A stretch of DNA of 64,000 nt from Bacteroidia bacterium (GTDB taxonomy: Bacteria > Bacteroidota > Bacteroidia > M30B66): the NCBI GenBank assembly GCA_965279035.1, contig OZ257142.1, forward strand, positions 3,776,001-3,840,000. Direction: 5' to 3'. Both the position numbers and the translations under genes were made by a program. Shown piece by piece: positions 6,291 through 64,000 of this stretch; positions within the stretch are counted from its first letter, which is position 1; each line of letters starts with the position of its first letter. The notes below the pieces were generated by a model that saw only the letters and a list, made by a program, of their open reading frames with translations, did not search any database and was not told the origin of the DNA.

Positions 6291-7075
6291 CTACAGCATC
6301 CCCGGATTTCAATCCGGGTTTTTTTGTAGAAGTTAACCTGAAACTCTTTATTTACCCTGCAAGTTCCCCGGATTGAAATCCGGGGGTGCCGAAATGTAGA
6401 AGCTGAGATACGTTGAAGTTGAACAACACTCTTTAGATTTCAAAAGAAGGTGGAGGAGGTTATAGTAGAAAAGAAAAAAGCCACTCTTGTATCGACATTT
6501 GAAGTATAACCTACAGCATCCCCGGATTGAAATCCGGGGTTTTTTGTAGAAGTTAAACTGAAACTCTTTATTTACCCTGCAAGTTCCCCGGATTGAAATC
6601 CGGGGGTGCCGAAATGTAGAAGCTGAGATACGTTGAAGTTGATCACTCTGCTTCTGATTTCTAAAGTTGAAATCCGGGGGTGCTAGAATGCCGATGCTGA
6701 GATACGTTGAAGTTGAACAACACTCTTTAGATTTCAAAAGAAGGTGGAGGAGGTTATAGTAGAAAAGAAAAAAGCCACTCTTGTATCGACATTTGAAGTA
6801 TAACCTACAGCATCCCCGGATTTCAATCCGGGGTTTTTTGTAGAAGTTAACCTGAAACTCTTTAGTTACCCTGCAAATTCCCCGGATTGAAATCCGGGGG
6901 TGCCGAAATGTAGAAGCTGAGATACGTTGAAGTTGATCACTCTGCTTCTGATTTCTAAAGTTGAAATCCGGGGGTGCCGAAATGTAGAAGCTGAGATACG
7001 TTGAAGTTGATCACTCTGACTCAGATTTCTAAAGTTGAAATCCGGGGGTGCTAGAATGCCAAAGCTGAGTTACGT
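6291..7075. repeat. BIME-like mosaic array of REP palindromes CCCCGGATT(TC/GA)AATCCGGGG with repeated linkers
   Basis: About 6 full and 3 half palindromes; the linker gctgagatacgttgaagttga is repeated 5 times; there is a ~297-bp internal duplication. Confidence 0.85.
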
Positions 7076-14596: not shown

Positions 14597-15604
14597 TTAT
14601 TTGAATGAAACCGTTTTCCCAAGCCATTCGAGTGCGGTACCGTTAAGCAAACGATTTTTTTGAGATTCACTTAAATTCATGTTTTTTATCAGCGTGCCCG
14701 GAATGACTTCGCCAAGCGGAAAAGGATAATCTGAGCCCAAAGCGATGCGCTCAACTCCAGCAAAATCAATCAAAAAACGCAAGGCTGATTCATCGTGAAC
14801 AAGACTGTCGAAATACAAACGATTCAAGTATTTTTCGGGGCTGATGGCATTGTCGATAGCCACTAAATCGGGGCGACACTCGAAACCATGTTTGATACGA
14901 CCCAGTGTTAACGGAAACGAACCACCACCATGTGCAAACGCCACACGTAGCTTAGGTAATCGCTCAAAAATTCCACCGAATATCATAGAACATATTGCAC
15001 GCGAAGTTTCGGCAGGCATCCCAACTAACCAAGGCAGCCAATAGCGCTGAATGTCTTTTTGTCCAAACATTTCCCATGGATGCACAAATACAGCTGCTCC
15101 TAATTCTTCAGCAGCCTGGAATATTTCGAAGAATTCGGGTTCATTCAAATTCAGCTGATTGACATTGCTCCCAATCTGAATTCCAGCCATTCCTAATTCC
15201 TTCATGCAACGTTCCAACTCACGAATAGCCAGTTTGGGCGATTGCATCGGGATTGTTCCTAAACCAATAAATCGATCGGGATAATCGCCCACAATGCCTG
15301 CAATATGATCATTGAGAAATTCCGAAACAGCCAAGGCATCTTCGCCCTTTGCCCAATATGAAAACATCACCGGAACAGTACTTAATACCTGCATATTCAC
15401 CCCATGATGATCACATTCGTGGATTCGTGCTTTCGGATCCCAGCAATTGTTCTGCACCTCCCGAAAAAACTGATCATCCTTCATCATCCGTGCACAGCAA
15501 GGCTTGTGATGATCGAGATGAATAAAACCACCATACCCAAATCGCTCCTTGAAATTAGGAATGTGTTCGGGAAGAATATGGGTGTGGATGTCGATGGTGA
15601 ACAT
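14597..15604 (-). CDS. nbaD: 2-amino-3-carboxymuconate-6-semialdehyde decarboxylase (ACMSD, amidohydrolase)
   Basis: [25 protein letters not shown] and [11 protein letters not shown]; downstream of 3-HAO. Confidence 0.9.
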
Positions 15605-15642
15605 GCTGATGTGTTGATGTGTATTCTAGGACTTATGCAAGT

Positions 15643-16623
15643 CTATGCAGCGTATTTTTTTAGATCAACATAGGGTGTTTTTCTTTTTACGACAGCAAAT
15701 ACTCTTGATACAAGTTTGTTTTTGACTGCATTGAGTGCACAATTATAATGTTTTCCTTCCTGGATTTTACGCTCCATATATTCTCTCATTTCGGTGTTAT
15801 TTAATACTGCCGAACGCGCCGCCATTGTTAATACTCCATTGATTTTTCGATTTGATCTTCTATCGGTTTGTGTTTTCCCTTTTATGGATGTTCCTGATGA
15901 TTTTTCGAATGGAGCTATTCCACTATAACATGCATATTGACGAGCATTGTCGAAGTATTCAAAGCCATTTGTTGTGGCGATTAAATACCAACTCGACACT
16001 GGTCCAACTCCTTTTATAGATTGAACTAATTCGTCGATTTGACGAAGATTATCATCTGACTTTATCAATGATTTGATTTCCTCTTCTACCAGTTTAAGTT
16101 TATCGTTAAAGGTCTTTAACAGATCCGTTTCGATTTGAAAAACTATATCTACACCAGTGGTTTTTGATGAGTTCTTAAGTCTGTTTTTGATGCCTATCTT
16201 CTCTTTTTCCAGATGCGAACGCATACTCAAGAGCTTTCTCAGCTGCGCTACAGCACTCTTTGATAGTACCGTTGGGCTAAGCTGTTCTGCATGTAATGCA
16301 ATGAAATTTGCGATTCTTTGGGAGTCTATCTTATCATTTTTGCCTCGCTGAAGTCCAATAGAATACTTAATGTTTAAGGAGGATTCCATGTAAAAACAGA
16401 TCTTCTTTTCACTCAAAAACACAGATAAATCCTCGCTATAAATACCCGTATGCTCAAAGCAAATGGCCATCGATTTTACACTCACTTTCAACTGCTTTAA
16501 CCAAGCAAGCATCAGTGTATAACCATCGATATCATTGCTAAAGACGTTGTGCTGAGATTGATTATGTAAATAAACATCCAGCGTTAATTTTGACACATCA
16601 ATGCCAATAAAGTTCTTCTTCAT
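15643..16623 (-). CDS. IS110-family DEDD transposase/recombinase
   Basis: IGIDVSK, FEHTG, KNDKIDS (DEDD RuvC-like); GVGP and APFEKSSG (Tnp20 with catalytic Ser). Confidence 0.95.
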   Translation of the reverse strand: MKKNFIGIDVSKLTLDVYLHNQSQHNVFSNDIDGYTLMLAWLKQLKVSVKSMAICFEHTGIYSEDLSVFLSEKKICFYMESSLNIKYSIGLQRGKNDKIDSQRIANFIALHAEQLSPTVLSKSAVAQLRKLLSMRSHLEKEKIGIKNRLKNSSKTTGVDIVFQIETDLLKTFNDKLKLVEEEIKSLIKSDDNLRQIDELVQSIKGVGPVSSWYLIATTNGFEYFDNARQYACYSGIAPFEKSSGTSIKGKTQTDRRSNRKINGVLTMAARSAVLNNTEMREYMERKIQEGKHYNCALNAVKNKLVSRVFAVVKRKTPYVDLKKYAA

Positions 16624-16639
16624 ACTTTTGTTTTTAAGT

Positions 16640-16825
16640 GTTGCTCTTGGCTAAAACCTTTAATAGATCTCGAAGTCTAAAATTCTAGCTGGCCATTAAC
16701 AACATGGTTAAAGGAAACGGGGACTCATACACACCTTAGGGATTTAAAGACCTAGCTGATGAGATAGTTCACCCCGTTTCTTTGTTTATTTTCAGTCAAG
16801 ATATCTCAACTAAAATAATAGTGCA
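16640..16825 (-). ncRNA. Predicted IS110 bridge RNA (target-binding loop followed by donor-binding loop); ends approximate
   Basis: Two stem-flanked internal loops whose 6-7 nt segments match the target repeat and the RE-LE junction. Confidence 0.75.
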
Positions 16826-16835
16826 AGTCTAAAGG

Positions 16836-17141
16836 CTGGTGTGTTGGTGTGCTGATGTGTTGATGTGCTGGTGTGCTGATGAATGATGTGCTGGTGTGTT
16901 GGTGTGCTGGTGTGCTGGTGTGTGCTGGTGTGTGCTGGTGTGCTGGTGTGCTGGTGTGCTGGTGTGCTGGTGATCCCGATAGCTATCGGGAGGTGTGCTG
17001 GTGATCCCGATAGCTATCGGGAGGTGTGCTGGTGTGATGATGAATGATGTGATGGTAAATGGTGTGTTAGTGAGCTGATGGAGATTTGATGAAAGTTGAG
17101 GTTAGTTAATCAGCACATCAACTAATAAGCACATCAGCACA
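16836..17141. repeat. Tandem octamer array (GGTGTGCT/GATGTGCT)n with two embedded 18-bp palindromes and inverted copies
   Basis: More than 15 units in 16836-17035; TCCCGATAGCTATCGGGA at 16974 and 17005; inverted cagcacat copies at 17111-17141. Confidence 0.9.
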
Positions 17142-17145
17142 TTAC

Positions 17146-17661
17146 TTAAGGTTTCTCCATTACCGTTCCACACTTCTTGCACGTTCTCAATTCTTCGGAG
17201 CCATAAAATTTATTCATTACGGGAGGAAGTTGGGTGACGATATCGGAGACGTGGAGGAATTCTTCGTAGAGCTTGTTGCCACAGGATTCACAGAACCACA
17301 TGAAGGCATCGTCTTCTTGCTTAGCACGAACTAATTCTACCACTAAACCAACCGTATTTTCAGGGCGTTGAGGAGAATGAGGTGTGCGACCGGGAAGCAT
17401 AAAGATGTCGCCTTCGTTGATATGAATATCGACAGGTTTGCCATCTTCGATGATTTTTAGTATCATGTTCCCTTCTAGCTGAAAGTAAAATTCTTCGCTT
17501 TCGTTGTAGTGGTAGTCTTTTCGTTTGTTGGGACCACCTACAACCATCACGATAATATCGTCGGCAGTTTTGAATACAACCTGATTTCCAACAGGTGGTT
17601 TGAGTAAGTGGCGGTTTTCGTCGATCCACTTTTTAAAGGAAAAAGGACGCTGGATTGGCAT
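17146..17661 (-). CDS. nbaC: 3-hydroxyanthranilate 3,4-dioxygenase
   Basis: LKPPVGN, VGGPNKRKDYH, PHSPQR; rubredoxin-like CESC/CKKC site. Confidence 0.95.
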   Translation of the reverse strand: MPIQRPFSFKKWIDENRHLLKPPVGNQVVFKTADDIIVMVVGGPNKRKDYHYNESEEFYFQLEGNMILKIIEDGKPVDIHINEGDIFMLPGRTPHSPQRPENTVGLVVELVRAKQEDDAFMWFCESCGNKLYEEFLHVSDIVTQLPPVMNKFYGSEELRTCKKCGTVMEKP

Positions 17662-17705: not shown

Positions 17706-18494
17706 ATGGAACTAAATCTCGCAGGAAAAACAGCGCTGGTATGCGGCAGTACACAAGGAATTGGACGTGCTTGTGCCCGTGAATTGGCCGAAGCAGGTGC
17801 TCATATTGTGCTTCTAGCCCGTGACGAAACACGTTTAAAAGAGGAAAAAATCGAGCTCGATCGCATCAATCACCTCAACAACGACTACCTCGTTGCCGAT
17901 TTTAATGATTGGAGACAAGTAGAATCGGTGGTCAAAGCATTTATCGCCAAACGCAATCCCATTCATATTCTCGTGAACAACAATGGAGGTCCGGCTGCTG
18001 GTCCAATTACCGAAGCACGCCCCGAAGCATTTGAAGCGGCATTTACCCAACATCTTTTATGCAATCAGGTATTGGCTCAAGCGGTGTTGGAGGAAATGAT
18101 AAAAGCTGATTATGGTCGAATCATCAATATCATATCGACTTCGGTAAAAGCACCATTGCATGGTTTAGGAGTTTCGAATACTATCCGTGCTGCTGTGGGA
18201 AATTGGTCGAAAACCTTAGCGAATGAAGTAGGGAAATATGGCATTACAGTGAATAATGTATTGCCAGGAGCAACAATGACGGGGCGTTTGTCGCAGATTA
18301 TTACAAATAAAGCAGCAAGAACTCACCAAGAAATTGCGGTGGTAGAAGAAGAAATGTTGGCAGAAATTCCCTTGAAGCGTTTTGCCAAACCAGAAGAAAT
18401 TGCTCATGCCGTAATGTTTTTAGCTTCGTCTGCTGCTGCGTATATCAATGGTATTAATTTACCCGTTGATGGTGGAAGGACGGGGAGTTTGTGA
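17706..18494 (+). CDS. SDR family oxidoreductase
   Basis: CGSTQGIG Rossmann motif, NNNGG, VDGG. Confidence 0.9.
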   Translation: MELNLAGKTALVCGSTQGIGRACARELAEAGAHIVLLARDETRLKEEKIELDRINHLNNDYLVADFNDWRQVESVVKAFIAKRNPIHILVNNNGGPAAGPITEARPEAFEAAFTQHLLCNQVLAQAVLEEMIKADYGRIINIISTSVKAPLHGLGVSNTIRAAVGNWSKTLANEVGKYGITVNNVLPGATMTGRLSQIITNKAARTHQEIAVVEEEMLAEIPLKRFAKPEEIAHAVMFLASSAAAYINGINLPVDGGRTGSL

Positions 18495-18544
18495 TGTGCT
18501 GATGATCCCGATAGCTATCGGGAGATGTGCTGGTGTGCTGATGT
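18493..18544. repeat. Octamer repeat cluster with 18-bp palindrome
   Basis: gatgtgctgatg...TCCCGATAGCTATCGGGA...ggtgtgctgatg. Confidence 0.75.
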
Positions 18545-23955: not shown

Positions 23956-24142
23956 GGGGCAAAGGTAATTGATGTGCTGGTGTGATGATTTGCTGGTGTG
24001 CTGTTTATTTCTCGGAAGGTTGTGACTGAAGGTTTATACTGATAGATCCTTTATGATCGGATTGAAAATTTGAAGATTTGGAGTTGGTGATTAAATAGTT
24101 GAAGCAACAAGTTGAGCATGTCAAAGCATGCTGATATGCTGG

Positions 24143-24402
24143 TGTGCTCCCTTCGACAAGCTCAGGGAGCAGGGTTTCTCTCCCAAAAGTCCGAACGCTG
24201 AGCCTGTCGAAGCATGCTGGTTAGTTAATGTGCTCCCTTCGACAAGCTCAGGGAGCAGGGTTTCTCTCCCAAAAGTCCGAACGCTGAGCCTGTCGAAGTG
24301 TGCTGGTTTGTTAATGTGCTCCCTTCGACAAGCTCAGGGAGCAGGGTTTCTCTCCCAAAAGTCCGAACGCTGAGCCTGTCGAAGCGTGCTGGTTAGTTAA
24401 TG
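24143..24402 (+). repeat. Three tandem 86-bp units containing inverted CTTCGACAAGCTCAG / CTGAGCCTGTCGAAG REP-like pairs
   Basis: Unit starts at 24143, 24229 and 24315; single copies at about 1373, 53860-53958 and 63795. Confidence 0.9.
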
Positions 24403-24440
24403 TAAACTTTAGTTCAATTAAATGCTACTTTTGAAAACAG

Positions 24441-41800: not shown

Positions 41801-41928
41801 AATGTGCTGATAAGATGATGTGCTGATAAGATGATGTGCTGGTGTGTTGGTGTGTTGGTGTGTTAGTGTGTTGATTAATCAGCACATTTTCTAACTAGCA
41901 CATCAGCACATTAAATAATTAGCACATC
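41801..41928. repeat. Octamer repeat cluster arranged as direct then inverted copies
   Basis: atgtgctgat/gtgttggt units followed by cagcacat units. Confidence 0.8.
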
Positions 41929-42724
41929 AACTATTATCCCCATCCAATAATCCTCCCAATCCACCCAGTAAAGAACCTTCTTCTTTACCACCACGGCCTA
42001 AACCTGGGGCATAACGAAGTACGCGACCGGCAAGTCGACTGAATGGTAAAGATTGAATCCACACTTTTCCGGGACCGGTTAGTTGAGCGAAGAATACGCC
42101 TTCACCACCAAATAAGGTGTTTTTAATACCACCAATAAATTGAATATCGTAATCAACATTTTGGGTGAATGCAACGATACAACCGGTGTCGATACGAAGG
42201 ATTTCGCCAGGTTTAAGTTCACGCTCGATGATGGTTCCGCATGAATGAACGAATGCCCAACCATCGCCTTCCAACTTTTGCATGATGAATCCTTCGCCTC
42301 CAAACAACCCAGTTCCTAATCGTTTTTGAAATTCAATACCGATTGAAACACCACGAGCAGCACATAGAAATGCATCTTTCTGACAAATTACTTTGCCTTG
42401 ATACATGGTTAAATCCAATGGGATGATTTTTCCGGGATACGGTGCGGCAAAGGTCACTTGTTGCTTTCCTTGCCCTACATTAGTATAAACGGTCATGAAT
42501 AAGCTTTCACCCGTTAAAACACGCTTTCCGGCGGTCATTAGTTTACCAAAAAAGCTTTGCTCTTGGGCACGACCATCACCAAAGATGGTTTCCATTTTTA
42601 TGCCTTGGTCCATCATCATGAACGATCCAGCTTCGGCAACAACTGCTTCTTGTGGATCTAATTCAATTTCTACACATTGCATCTCTGAGCCAATGATGCG
42701 GTAATCGATTTCGTGGGAATTCAT
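41927..42724 (-). CDS. TIGR00266 / AIM24 family protein
   Basis: AEAG, GESLF, GGEG repeats, G.VW.QS. Confidence 0.9.
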
Positions 42725-47679: not shown

Positions 47680-48066
47680 CCGGAATGAATTCCGGGGTTG
47701 CCTGGAATAATTATTCAAACATCATATTATCAAATCAAAAAAAATGTCACATCTCCCGATAACTATCGGGATAACCAGCACGCTTCGACAGGCTCAGCGC
47801 GCGGGCTTTTGGGAGAGGAACCCTGCTCCCTGAGCTTGTCGAAAGGAGCACATTAACAAATCATCGACAGGCTCAGCGCGCGGGTTTTTGGGAGAGGAAC
47901 CCTGCTCCCTGAGCTTGTCGAAAGGAGCACATTAACAAATCATCGACAGGTTCAGCGCGCGAGCTTTTGGGAGAGAAAACCTGCTCCCTGAGTTTGTCGA
48001 AGGGAGCACATTACCGGAATGAATTCCGGGGATGCCAGAAGGAATCAATCAAACATCATATTATCA
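47680..48066 (-). repeat. Composite repeat block: three ~79-bp CTTCGACA-family units bracketed by two CCGGAATGAATTCCGG palindromic direct repeats
   Basis: tcgacagg at about 47785, 47864 and 47943; flanking repeats at about 47681 and 48014; reverse complement of the 24143 unit. Confidence 0.85.
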
Positions 48067-48139
48067 TTTCAAAAAAATAACACATCATCTAACCAGCACA
48101 CCAGCACATCAATTACCTTTGCTGCCTCAAAAAACAACC

Positions 48140-50007: not shown

Positions 50008-50113
50008 GCAGCAGCGATAGAGCGAAAAGCCCGCATTGTTCGCCGAAGCTTGAGCGAAGGGGAACAAGAGGTTCCGATAGCTATCGGAATTAGCGAAAGC
50101 GAGGGCGCTGTCC
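50008..50113 (+). ncRNA. Structured dispersed intergenic element, copy 2 (with an inserted 18-bp palindrome)
   Basis: GCAGC-AGCGAT...GCTGT-CC; internal sequence homologous to the reverse complement of 53681-53782. Confidence 0.45.
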
Positions 50114-51930: not shown

Positions 51931-52670
51931 GTCTACCTCACCCTAAATCCCTCTCCTCGGGGAGAGGGACTTTTTAAACGTGAATGTTTGATTAGCATAA
52001 TTAGTATTTCACTCTAGCAGAATGCTCTCCCCTTTCTATTCGAACATTCGAGTCTACCTCACCCTAAATCCCTCTCCTCAGGGAGAGGGACTTTTTATAC
52101 GTGAATGTTTGATCAGAATGATTAGAATTTCAACTTAGTAGAATGTTCTCCCCTTTCTCCTCGAACATTCGAGTTCACCTCACCCTAAATCCCTCTCCTC
52201 GGGGAGAGGGACTTTTTATACGTAAATGTTTGATTAGCATAATTAGTATTTCACTCTAGCAGAATGCTCTCCCCTTTCTCCTCGTGGAGAAAGGGGCCGG
52301 GGGATAGAGGTCAAGGATGCCAGAAAAATTTCAATATGAAACTTTGAAATTATTAATTTCCAACTTAACAGAATGCTCTCCCCTTTCTCCTCGAACATTC
52401 GAGTCTACCTCACCCTAAATCCCTCTCCTCGGGGAGAGGGACTTCTTAAACGTGAATGTTTGATCAGCATAATTAGTATTTCACTCTAGCAGAATGCTCT
52501 CCCCTTTCTATTCGAGCATTCGAGTCTACCTCACCCTAAATCCCTCTCCTCAGGGAGAGGGAATTTTTATACGTGAATGTTTGATTAGCATAATTAGTAT
52601 TTCACTCTAGCAGAATGCTCTCCCCTTTCTCCTCGTGGAGAAAGGGGCCGGGGGATAGAGGTCAAGGATG
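51931..52670. repeat. Tandem ~120-bp units with CCCTCTCC-N-GGAGAGGG REP-like hairpins
   Basis: acctcaccctaaatccctctcctc..ggagaggg at about 51935, 52056, 52176, 52406 and 52527; two units end ccctttctcctcgtggagaaagggg. Confidence 0.9.
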
Positions 52671-63753: not shown

Positions 63754-63829
63754 TGCTCTATTTTACCAACTTAATCAGCTATTTGAATGCTCGCTTCGAC
63801 AGGCTCAGCGAGCGGATTTTATATAGAAA

Positions 63830-64000
63830 TTGAAACTAAAATTCCTCATGTTTACTACAGCATCCCCGGATTTCAATCCGGGGACTTCGACAGGTTCTGT
63901 GTTGGATTTTATTTAGAAAATAAAACTAAAATTCCTCGAGTTTACTACAGCATCCCCGGATTTCAATCCGGGGACTTCGACAGGTTCTGTGTTGGATTTT
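63830..64000. repeat. Tandem ~90-bp units fusing the CCCCGGATTTCAATCCGGGG REP with CTTCGACAGG
   Basis: tttactacagcatccccggatttcaatccggggacttcgacagg at about 63851 and 63941; runs off the window end. Confidence 0.8.

What the first reader, a model, noticed from the sequence alone, without database searches (positions are those of the whole stretch)
15622..16835. IS110 bridge RNA decoded: target guides spell the host's octamer repeat and donor guides spell the circle junction
Seen, reading the element (minus) strand: the junctions are caccag-C-ctttaga and ctagaata-C-acatc, so the predicted circle junction is CTAGAATA-C-CTTTAG. The upstream non-coding end has two hairpin domains. Domain 1 (outer stem 16710-16722 with 16772-16783) holds CAUCAGC (16755-16761) and GGUGUG (16730-16735) on either side of an inner stem; together they specify the target CATCAG-C-ACACC, which is plus-strand GGTGTGCTGATG, the repeat unit. 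Domain 2 holds CUAGAAU (16682-16688, identical to the element end at 15623-15629) and UAAAGGU (16656-16662, complementary to ACCTTTA spanning the junction). Known: this is the target-loop-then-donor-loop layout of IS110/IS621 bridge RNAs. Inference: an intact programmable recombinase from Bacteroidota, programmed for a simple tandem repeat rather than a palindromic REP.
Basis: partly seen in the sequence, partly recalled or inferred. Interest (0 to 1): 0.85.

Follow-up and report, generated by a model that had tools for sequence, protein, structure and literature searches.

The report
IS110 element with decoded bridge RNA
This is an apparently intact IS110-type jumping gene whose own small guide RNA spells out both its insertion site in a host repeat and its own joined ends; it is a clear new example of a mechanism already described in 2024.

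Summary
Minus strand 16834..15622 is a 1,213-bp IS110-group element. It has a 211-nt left end, a 326-aa DEDD/Ser recombinase (Pfam PF01548 + PF02371) and a 21-nt right end.

The left end encodes an RNA with two internal loops. The first holds CAUCAGC and GGUGUG, which match the flanks. The second holds CUAGAAU and UAAAGGU, which match the element ends.

The decisive evidence is covariation:
- Two relatives with the same ends but other insertion sites carry other first-loop guides, and these match their own flanks (L001, L015).
- A covariance model built from 5 sequences finds the RNA upstream of the gene in 75 of 80 metagenome relatives.
- In those relatives the guides match the flanks far better than in mismatched pairs (6.1 of 8 against 3.1; 5.1 of 6 against 2.5; 0 of 10,000 permutations each).
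- 28 of 30 stem pairs show compensatory changes.

- The occupied site differs from the guides at 2 of 12 positions.
- The octamers belong to a composite repeat family that also contains a palindrome.
- Donor and target share only one base, C.

Expression, circle formation and activity were not shown. Verdict: a new member of a known kind, of moderate interest.

The parts
15622..16834 (-). The whole IS110-group element (1,213 bp). The C at 16835 and the C at 15621 are the single base shared by the target and the joined ends.
   Evidence: The junctions were read. The same ends lie next to different flanks in L001, L002, L015 and seven contigs of G003.
16624..16834 (-). Left non-coding end (211 nt), which encodes the bridge RNA.
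   Evidence: Covariance model R1 matches 16785..16633 at 183.8 bits. This match is by construction, because the window is one of the 5 training sequences.
16824..16831 (-). TAGACTTG, which resembles the Bacteroidota -7 promoter box TAnnTTTG. It would place the RNA start near 16818 (inferred).
   Evidence: The box at this fixed place matches 6 of 6 specified bases in 22 and 5 of 6 in 16 of 39 distinct junctions. The consensus comes from PMC7366714 (one passage read).
16790..16815 (-). 5' hairpin that precedes the target loop.
   Evidence: MFE fold, positions 21-46 of the folded strand. L001 and L015 have a longer insert here.
16712..16782 (-). Target-binding domain. Outer stem 16782-16772 with 16722-16712. 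Inner stem 16754-16751 with 16740-16737.
   Evidence: All 11 outer-stem pairs and 3 of 4 inner-stem pairs show changes on both sides across 67 distinct sequences.
16755..16761 (-). Left target guide CAUCAGC, same sense as the left flank.
   Evidence: The window's left flank is CACCAGC (16841..16835), 6 of 7 identical with a U:G-compatible difference. G003 flanks read CATCAGC twice and TATCAGC twice. L001 has AAAUAGC against flank AAATAGC. L015 has CAUCUAUC against CATCTATC.
16730..16735 (-). Right target guide GGUGUG, complementary to C + right flank.
   Evidence: The window's right flank is CACATC (15621..15616), 5 of 6 with a G:T-compatible difference. L001 has AGUGUG against CACATT. L015 has UAAAUG against CATTTA, 6 of 6.
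16640..16703 (-). Donor-binding domain. Basal stems 16703-16698 with 16645-16640 and 16695-16692 with 16651-16648. Inner stem 16679-16675 with 16668-16664.
   Evidence: Compensatory changes are already present among the 5 close sequences (5 pairs). They occur in 14 of 15 pairs across the family.
16682..16688 (-). Left donor guide CUAGAAU, identical to the right end at 15629..15623.
   Evidence: In relatives the aligned 7-mer (TTAGAAT, TTAGATT, ATAGAAT, TTAGGAT and others) recurs downstream of the stop codon in 58 of 76 loci.
16656..16662 (-). Right donor guide UAAAGGU, complementary to A-C-CTTTA across the predicted circle junction.
   Evidence: Variants UAAGAG, UAACGG, UAAUGG, UAAUAG and UAACAG go with left ends TCTTA, CGTTA, CATTA, TATTA and TGTTA. 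The RNA base 3' of the hexamer pairs with the last element base in 18 of 20 distinct cases.
15643..16623 (-). Recombinase gene, 326 aa.
   Evidence: Pfam PF01548 (E 2.5e-16) and PF02371 (E 2.2e-18). D9, E57, D97, D100, S243 and G244 are invariant in 16 sequences. They align with the matching motifs of ISCro4 chain 9t56_A.
15622..15642 (-). Right non-coding end (21 nt). It contains CTTG (15641..15638), which would lie 20 nt upstream of the -7 box once the ends are joined.
   Evidence: TTG occupies this fixed place in 32 of 39 distinct junctions, against 0-5 at places slid by 1-6 nt.
16835..17143 (.). Host repeat array that received the insertion: octamer units plus two copies of the palindrome CCCGATAGCTATCGGG. 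A two-unit remnant lies at 15607-15622 on the other side of the element.

Best explanation
Window 15622-16834 (minus strand) is an apparently intact insertion sequence of the IS110 group. It carries a DEDD/serine recombinase gene and, in its 211-nt left end, a bridge RNA of about 180 nt.

The RNA folds into a 5' hairpin followed by two stem-enclosed internal loops. In the first loop, CAUCAGC has the same sense as the left half of the insertion site, so it would pair with that half's bottom strand. [quoted passage not shown] Together they specify CATCAG-C-ACACC, a motif of the host's intergenic octamer repeats. In the second loop, CUAGAAU (same sense as the right end) and UAAAGGU (complementary to the start of the left end) recognise the joined ends of the excised circle, CTAGAATA-C-CTTTAG.

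The recombinase would bring the two DNAs together on this RNA and exchange strands at the one shared base, C.

Shown here: the anatomy, the element ends, the match of guides to DNA, and the covariation of guides with flanks and with ends across relatives.

Inferred from the IS621 work: RNA-guided synapsis, strand exchange and the circular intermediate. Also inferred: transcription of the RNA from a Bacteroidota-type promoter whose -33 part (right end) and -7 part (left end) come together only in the circle.
For: (1) Protein. Both IS110 Pfam domains are present. The protein matches the solved bridge recombinases ISCro4 and IS621 over 315 residues. The DEDD and Ser-Gly residues are invariant. 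Their roles are taken from passages of PMC11208158.

(2) Ends. The same ends abut unrelated flanks in L001, L002, L015 and G003, which has 4 left and 3 right junctions.

(3) Target guides change with the site while the ends stay the same. Window: CAUCAGC/GGUGUG at CACCAGC|CACATC. L001: AAAUAGC/AGUGUG at AAATAGC|CACATT. L015: CAUCUAUC/UAAAUG at CATCTATC|CATTTA.

(4) Family test. Model R1 scores E <= 2.5e-9 just upstream of the gene in 75 of the 80 metagenome loci. Of the 76 loci examined, the left end was placed in 71 and the right end in 58, using the donor guides alone. The neighbouring flanks then match the target guides. For the left guide, 49 distinct pairs average 6.1 of 8 against 3.13 in mismatched pairs. 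For the right guide, 36 distinct pairs average 5.14 of 6 against 2.51. In each case 0 of 10,000 permutations reach the observed mean.

(5) RNA structure. 90.1% of cells are paired, against 72.5% in shuffles and 32-50% when partners are slid. 28 of 30 pairs show changes on both sides.

(6) Layout. The loop order and strand rule are those described for IS621.

(7) The target motif CAYCAGCACAYY occurs 20 times in the window against 0.02 expected.

(8) In the contigs of run X1, one 1,221-nt record covers exactly 15618-16838 at word depth 747.9, while flanking records are at 165-205. This is a weak hint of several copies that share four flank bases on each side.
Against: - There is no direct evidence of RNA, circle or transposition.
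- The occupied site matches the guides at 10 of 12 positions, while three perfect sites in the window are empty.
- The folding energy of the left end alone is unremarkable (z -1.74).
- Free-RNA predictions pair the two guide strands of each loop with each other instead of leaving loops open. For the target loop these pairs break in 2 of 5 sequences.
- The left donor guide stops two bases short of the crossover C, and only one base is shared between donor and target. This departs from the CT dinucleotide core of IS621.
- No Rfam family matched the region.
- The family alignment was fitted to the model, which favours the model's structure.
- The ends of the distant relatives were located with the donor guides. 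The donor-guide test is therefore partly circular. Its independent support is that the ends so placed abut flanks matching the target guides.
Confidence: 0.93

Rival explanations
1. The anatomy is that of a bridge-RNA element, but this copy is a fixed, no longer mobile relic. It could be silent, or the host could use it only as a source of a promoter or a terminator.
For: Nothing here shows mobility. The occupied site differs from the guides at 2 of 12 positions while perfect sites nearby are empty. The element sits 17 nt upstream of the start of the amidohydrolase gene, in the same orientation.
Against: The reading frame is full length and all catalytic residues are kept. A protein 96% identical over 100% of the length exists in other samples (P0001). 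Close relatives occupy at least 4 sites in one genome. The contig depth in X1 hints at several identical copies.
Confidence: 0.1
2. The left end is an ordinary leader or promoter region. The short matches to the ends and flanks would then be DNA sites for the recombinase, or chance, and not RNA guides.
For: Seven-base matches are short. The single-sequence fold is not significant. There is no RNA evidence.
Against: The first-loop strings change together with the flanks in relatives that keep identical ends. They do so across the family. One strand of each loop is same-sense and the other antisense, as RNA pairing with two DNA strands requires. The stems that enclose the loops keep pairing through compensatory changes in 28 of 30 pairs, which is selection on RNA and not on DNA.
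Confidence: 0.03
3. It is an IS1111-type element whose guide (seekRNA) lies downstream of the gene.
For: It belongs to the same protein family. A short sub-terminal inverted repeat GTC...GAC flanks the donor sequence. In 16 distinct combinations of ends and donor guides, 3 of 3 positions are complementary in 6 and 2 of 3 in 8.
Against: The right end is only 21 nt and the left end is 211 nt. This is the IS110-group pattern described in PMC11208160 (passages). The structured, covarying RNA lies upstream of the gene.
Confidence: 0.01

Closest known systems
IS621 of Escherichia coli and its bridge RNA (Durrant et al. 2024, PMC11208160; Hiraizumi et al. 2024, PMC11208158; PDB 8wt6)
   Same: Both have a recombinase of about 326 aa with a DEDD RuvC-like domain and a Tnp domain with a catalytic Ser. 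Both have a long left end that encodes an RNA with a 5' hairpin, then a target loop, then a donor loop. [quoted passage not shown] Both have a very short right end, a 3-bp sub-terminal inverted repeat around the donor, and a promoter split across the joined ends.
   Different: The proteins are distant (phmmer E 1.5e-22). The shared crossover is a single C rather than the CT dinucleotide. The base before C follows the target guide in 26 of 28 junctions and differs from the donor's in 18 of these. The left donor guide does not cover the crossover. The promoter motifs are of the Bacteroidota -33/-7 type rather than sigma-70. The target is an octamer motif, not an E. coli REP.
ISCro4 transposase (PDB 9t56)
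   Same: It is the best solved match, E 1.6e-25, aligned over residues 4-318 with the GIDVSK, E, KxDxxD and SG motifs in register.
   Different: I saw only the chain name and the alignment. I did not examine its RNA or its target.
IS1111 group and seekRNA elements
   Same: They share the recombinase family and the principle of RNA-guided site choice.
   Different: In those elements the guide RNA lies in a long right end and the sub-terminal inverted repeats are 7-17 bp (PMC11208160 passage). Here the RNA is in the left end and the repeat is 3 bp.
REP-targeting IS110 elements (for example the ISPpu10 preprint, listing and abstract start only)
   Same: They also insert into a multi-copy intergenic host repeat.
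   Different: Here the recognised bases lie in the octamer units that flank a palindrome, not in the palindrome itself. Many 40-45% relatives do carry guides for GC-rich strings such as CTGCCGGC|CAGGCA.

Membership tests
IS110 family, IS110 group (bridge recombinase elements) | N-terminal DEDD RuvC-like domain (PF01548) | tested here: met
   E 2.5e-16, 60.3 bits against a cut-off of 29. D9, E57, D97 and D100 are invariant in 16 sequences and are in register with ISCro4.
IS110 family, IS110 group (bridge recombinase elements) | C-terminal Tnp domain (PF02371) with the conserved serine | tested here: met
   E 2.2e-18, 66.8 bits against a cut-off of 21.3. S243-G244 are invariant. They correspond to S241-G242 of IS621 as described in PMC11208158.
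IS110 family, IS110 group (bridge recombinase elements) | Left non-coding end much longer than the right, no long terminal inverted repeats, no target duplication beyond a short core | tested here: met
   The left end is 211 nt and the right end 21 nt. One C is shared at both junctions. Only a 3-bp GTC...GAC sub-terminal repeat is present.
IS110 family, IS110 group (bridge recombinase elements) | Structured RNA in the left end with two internal loops, target loop first and donor loop second | tested here: met
   28 of 30 stem pairs have compensatory changes. The loop order is as.
IS110 family, IS110 group (bridge recombinase elements) | Loop strands covary with the target flanks and with the element ends | tested here: met
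   Three different specificities occur among elements with identical ends. The family-wide permutation tests give 0 of 10,000. Donor-guide variants go with variant ends.
IS110 family, IS110 group (bridge recombinase elements) | Core dinucleotide common to donor and target and covered by all four guides (CT in IS621) | tested here: not met
   Only C is shared. It is C in 41 of 42 right junctions; the 49 of 49 at left junctions is partly by construction. The left donor guide stops short of it. This is a difference from IS621, not from the family, whose cores vary.
IS110 family, IS110 group (bridge recombinase elements) | Excision to a circle that joins the right and left ends and rebuilds a promoter | not testable with these tools
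   Only the motif is present: TTG-N20-TAGAYTTG across 32 of 39 predicted junctions. The laid runs were contigs, which cannot show rare circles.
IS110 family, IS110 group (bridge recombinase elements) | The RNA is expressed, bound by the recombinase and required for recombination | not testable with these tools
   This needs experiments.
Rfam-curated RNA family | Match to a curated covariance model | tested here: not met
   No match lies in 16624-16835. The six matches at E <= 10 in 15300-17200 are snoRNA-type or other noise outside or unrelated to the left end.

The most novel reading that the evidence does not exclude
This large Bacteroidota clade of bridge recombinases exchanges strands around a single shared base. 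Donor and target agree only at C. The base before it stays with the target side in 26 of 28 junctions, although it differs from the donor's in 18 of these. This would imply either a one-base stagger or a strict bias in resolving a mismatched two-base core, and so a mechanistic variant of the IS621 scheme. In addition, natural close relatives (67-96% identical recombinases with identical ends) already carry at least three different target programmes. That would make the clade a ready-made test bed for retargeting, with a guide-RNA promoter of the Bacteroidota type that is complete only in the circle.
Probability: 0.3. Interest if true: 0.5.

Novelty: new member of a known kind. Interest (0 to 1): 0.35.

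Why it matters
Bridge RNAs were described in 2024 and were predicted there in 85.7% of catalogued IS110-group elements (PMC11208160), so the principle is not new.

What this case adds:
- A cleanly decoded, compact (326 aa, RNA of about 180 nt) example from Bacteroidota.
- A covariance model that recovers the RNA in 75 of 80 distant relatives.
- A natural series in which the target loop changed while the recombinase and the donor ends stayed nearly the same.
- A one-base shared core.
- A Bacteroidota-style promoter split across the junction.

These points are useful for annotating such elements in Bacteroidota genomes, where they break assemblies, and as leads for engineering. They would not surprise a specialist.

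Tried and rejected
- Own genome: none is held for this window. Other copies in the same genome could therefore not be listed.
- Window search: it holds only this one copy of the left end.
- Rfam at E <= 10: nothing relevant.
- Viral-contig scan with an 18-nt donor-loop motif: 0 hits.
- Single-sequence folding: weak.
- RNAalifold on 5 sequences paired the guide strands with each other. I replaced that structure with a hand-drawn one that leaves the guides unpaired. I checked it and on the family.
- Sequencing runs: no RNA holder was listed, so nothing can be said on expression.
- The four runs laid were all contigs. No contig showed a right-end-to-left-end joint. One X6 contig joins 15605 to 16942 (skips 1,336, side 30, at 85% likeness). 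That could be an empty site in a relative or a repeat artefact, and I make nothing of it.
- Enrichment of G:U-compatible mismatches: 10 of 25 against 5.0 expected, and 8 of 23 against 4.0 expected. This is only twofold and is confounded by the general excess of transitions. I do not use it as evidence.
- The 10-nt direct repeat TAGACTTGCA at both ends of the window copy is not conserved in relatives. I dropped it as a feature.
- Low scores in the guide-flank test (for example L050, L040, L071, L068, L059) are one-base register shifts of the automatic alignment. They were kept in the counts.
- Rows dropped before the counts: L065 and L064 had truncated RNA. Loci whose flank ran off the contig or held an N were also dropped, which is why 66 of the 71 left ends found and 55 of the 58 right ends found were usable. 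Identical guide/flank pairs were counted once.
- L003 (32% identity) gave only a marginal RNA match (E 0.34) and was not used.
- Supplements of the papers were not seen. The bridge-RNA tables of Durrant et al. may already list this clade.
- In print: searches listed no paper on a native Bacteroidota bridge RNA. I judged this from listings and abstract starts only.
Full report
**What is there.** On the minus strand the host's octamer array (...CACCAGCA CACCAACA CACCAG) runs into C(16835). The element follows: CTTTAGACTTGCAC...(16834 onward). It ends ...AAGTCCTAGAATA(15622). Then come C(15621)-ACATCAACACATCAGC and the ATG of the next gene. Between these points lie a 211-nt non-coding left end, one reading frame of 326 aa (15643-16623) and a 21-nt right end.

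The protein carries the two domains that define IS110 recombinases: DEDD_Tnp_IS110 (E 2.5e-16) and Transposase_20 (E 2.2e-18). It aligns over residues 4-318 with two solved bridge recombinases, ISCro4 (9t56, E 1.6e-25) and IS621 (8wt6, E 1.5e-22). D9, E57, D97, D100 and S243-G244 are invariant in an alignment of 16 relatives of 48-96% identity. They correspond to the D11/E60/D102/D105 and S241-G242 active site described for IS621 (passages of PMC11208158).

**Checking the observation.** The ends are not a guess. The same left end (CCTTTAGACTTGCAC) and right end (AGTCCTAGAATA-C) abut unrelated flanks in a Bacteroidota MAG (L001), in a second MAG (L002, right end only), in seven contigs of a third genome (G003, four left and three right junctions) and in a metagenome contig (L015). 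The left flanks end in ...AG-C or ...AT-C. The right flanks begin with C-ACAT or C-ATTT.

**The test that matters: do the loop strings follow the insertion site?** They do. Three elements have identical ends and identical second-loop strings but recombinases of 75% and 67% identity to the window's. Their first-loop strings differ, and each matches its own flanks.

| Element | 5' guide | Left flank | 3' guide | Right flank |
|---|---|---|---|---|
| Window | CAUCAGC | CACCAGC | GGUGUG | CACATC |
| L001 | AAAUAGC | AAATAGC | AGUGUG | CACATT |
| L015 | CAUCUAUC | CATCTATC (8 of 8) | UAAAUG | CATTTA (6 of 6) |

The 5' string always has the same sense as the flank and the 3' string is always antisense. 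[quoted passage not shown]

**Family-wide test.** I built a covariance model (R1) from the five close sequences, with a hand-drawn structure that leaves the four guide strings unpaired. In the 80 loci fetched from metagenomes with the protein alignment (mostly 38-45% identical), it finds a full or end-truncated match directly upstream of the gene in 75 at E <= 2.5e-9. Three further loci, whose upstream DNA is cut by the contig end, give only weak partial matches or none.

In the resulting alignment the two first-loop strings are the most variable columns, between strongly conserved flanks (GGGGUGAACU ... GUAUYAGUCCCC). The stems are real RNA stems:
- 90.1% of cells are paired, against 72.5% in shuffles and 32-50% with slid partners.
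- 28 of 30 pairs show changes on both sides.
- 341 cells are compensatory, against 85 in shuffles (0 of 500 shuffles reach this).
- The caveat is that the alignment was fitted to the model.

I then located each relative's ends using only its second-loop strings. The reverse complement of the 3' string was sought upstream of the RNA, and the 5' string downstream of the stop codon. Of 76 loci, a left end was found in 71 and a right end in 58.

The flanks next to those ends were compared with the first-loop strings:
- Left guide: 49 distinct guide/flank pairs average 6.1 of 8 identical, against 3.13 for guides paired with other loci's flanks.
- Right guide: 36 distinct pairs average 5.14 of 6, against 2.51.
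- No permutation out of 10,000 reached either observed mean.
- The few low scores are one-base register shifts and were left in.

Donor strings covary too. UAAGAG, UAACGG, UAAUGG, UAAUAG and UAACAG go with left ends beginning TCTTA, CGTTA, CATTA, TATTA and TGTTA. The RNA base after the hexamer pairs with the last base of the element in 18 of 20 distinct cases. Because the ends were found with these strings, this second result is partly circular. Its independent support is that the ends so placed sit beside flanks matching the other loop.

**How it most likely works.** By analogy with IS621 (inferred, not shown here), the element excises as a circle that joins CTAGAATA-C-CTTTAG. The RNA's second loop holds that junction and the first loop holds a host site CATCAG-C-ACACC. 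The recombinase tetramer exchanges strands at the shared C.

The joined ends would also bring together a promoter of the Bacteroidota type. In 32 of 39 distinct predicted junctions, TTG (TTTG in 17; CTTG in the window, 15641..15638) lies exactly 20 nt upstream of a box at left-end bases 4-11. That box matches TAnnTTTG at 6 of 6 specified bases in 22 junctions and at 5 of 6 in 16. The window has TAGACTTG at 16831..16824. TTG at places slid by 1-6 nt occurs 0-5 times. The consensus TTTG / TAnnTTTG is quoted from one passage of PMC7366714. Reconstitution of a promoter across the junction is known for IS110 elements (PMC11208160). In the integrated copy the -33 part is replaced by host repeat sequence.

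**Points that do not fit perfectly.**
- The occupied site differs from the guide-specified 12-mer at two positions, C for T in the left half and T for C in the right. Both would still allow G:U or G:T pairs. Three perfect 12-mers in the window are empty, two of them 11 and 35 nt away in the same array. All six right flanks seen in this subgroup have T opposite the same G.
- The left donor guide ends two bases before the crossover.
- Donor and target share only the C. The base before it is G, T, A or C in targets (29, 12, 5 and 3 of 49) and A or T in donors. It equals the target guide's base in 26 of 28 in-register junctions, differs from the donor's in 18 of these, and is never the donor's base against the guide. 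IS621 has an identical CT dinucleotide in both partners. Whether this clade uses a one-base stagger or resolves a mismatched dinucleotide with a bias cannot be told from sequence.
- Thermodynamic folding alone would not have found this RNA (z = -1.74). Free-RNA predictions zip the guide strands together. For the target loop that pairing is peculiar to the window's repeat-derived target and breaks in L001 and L015.

**The target.** CAYCAGCACAYY occurs 20 times in the window against 0.02 expected, at seven separate places: the array beside the element, a separate site at 17132, and 18493-18543, 23971, 41833, 41901 and 48099. Each lies between or at the ends of long reading frames.

The octamers are not the whole story. 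They are interleaved with a perfect 16-nt palindrome, CCCGATAGCTATCGGG. It occurs 5 times in the window at up to 2 mismatches, against 0.00 expected, and again next to element junctions in genome G003 (L010, L011). The host therefore has a composite, REP-like intergenic repeat family, and the element is aimed at its octamer part. Many 40-45% relatives carry guides for GC-rich strings such as CTGCCGGC|CAGGCA.

**Copies and hosts.**
- No genome is held for the window.
- In the contigs of run X1, which holds 97% of the sampled words and may be the source sample, one 1,221-nt record covers exactly 15618-16838 at word depth 747.9, while flanking records are at 165-205. This is a weak hint of roughly four copies that share four flank bases on each side (CAGC...CACA).
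- Run X5 (another organism label) carries the element with the AGUGUG variant of the right target guide, in another octamer array.
- Record titles of the close relatives name Bacteroidota, Bacteroidia and a 'Chitinophaga pinensis' MAG.
- No RNA run was listed (see Tried and rejected).

**Comparison and verdict.** It works like IS621, and it passes every family test that can be run on sequence (see Membership tests). It differs from IS621 in the one-base core, the reach of the left donor guide, the promoter type and the kind of target. Bridge RNAs were already predicted for 85.7% of catalogued IS110-group elements, so this is a new member of a known kind.

The claims of intactness and programmability remain inferences. 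Two literature searches (listings and abstract starts only) showed no paper on a native Bacteroidota bridge RNA. The supplements of the 2024 papers, which I could not see, may list this clade.

Noticed in passing
window 16835-17143, 18493-18543, 23970-24000, 41802-41929, 47755-47770, 48099-48110, 50073-50088; L010 247-262, L011 242-257: A composite intergenic repeat family of the host. It consists of octamer units (plus strand GCTGRTGT) interleaved with the perfect palindrome CCCGATAGCTATCGGG. The same palindrome occurs in another genome (G003) next to insertions of the related element.
   Followed up: partly
window 6373-7051, 24113-24403, 47785-48013, 51931-52670, 63814-64000: Five other long tandem repeats (periods 294/74, 86, 79, 121/351 and 90 nt, at 76-96% matches). 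Several contain hairpin-like strings such as TCGACAGGCTCAG...CTGAGCTTGTCGA. Their nature is unknown.
   Followed up: no
window 14597-15604 and 17146-17661 (both minus): The element splits a pair of genes that look like one pathway: 3-hydroxyanthranilate 3,4-dioxygenase (PF06052, E 1.8e-58) and an Amidohydro_2 enzyme (PF04909, E 1.6e-44). It ends 17 nt before the ATG of the latter, in the same orientation, so it may affect that gene's expression.
   Followed up: no
L034 919-1018 and L035 918-1019: A second, partial match to the target-loop half of the RNA model lies about 110 nt upstream of the full RNA in two related loci (E 0.27 and 0.017). It may be a remnant of an earlier insertion or a duplicated left end.
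   Followed up: no
window 16822-16831 and 15636-15645 (minus strand): A 10-nt direct repeat TAGACTTGCA lies near both ends of the window's copy. It is not conserved in relatives, whose right ends read TAAATTTGCA, TAAACTTGCA, AAGATTTGGA and GAAATTTGGA. It is probably chance on top of the promoter-like motifs.
   Followed up: yes
L073-L094 (contigs labelled human gut metagenome and others): A cluster of near-identical elements (43% protein identity to the window's) with guides UGUGUYCUC / CCACGG sits at several different flanks, all reading CTG[TC]GTCCTC | C[CTG]GTG.... It is a widespread relative with its own repeated target.
   Followed up: partly
window 16709-16815 (plus strand): The RNA model also gives a weak antisense match (23.1 bits, E 0.0027) over the target-loop domain. 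This is expected from the long symmetric outer stem and is not a second RNA.
   Followed up: yes
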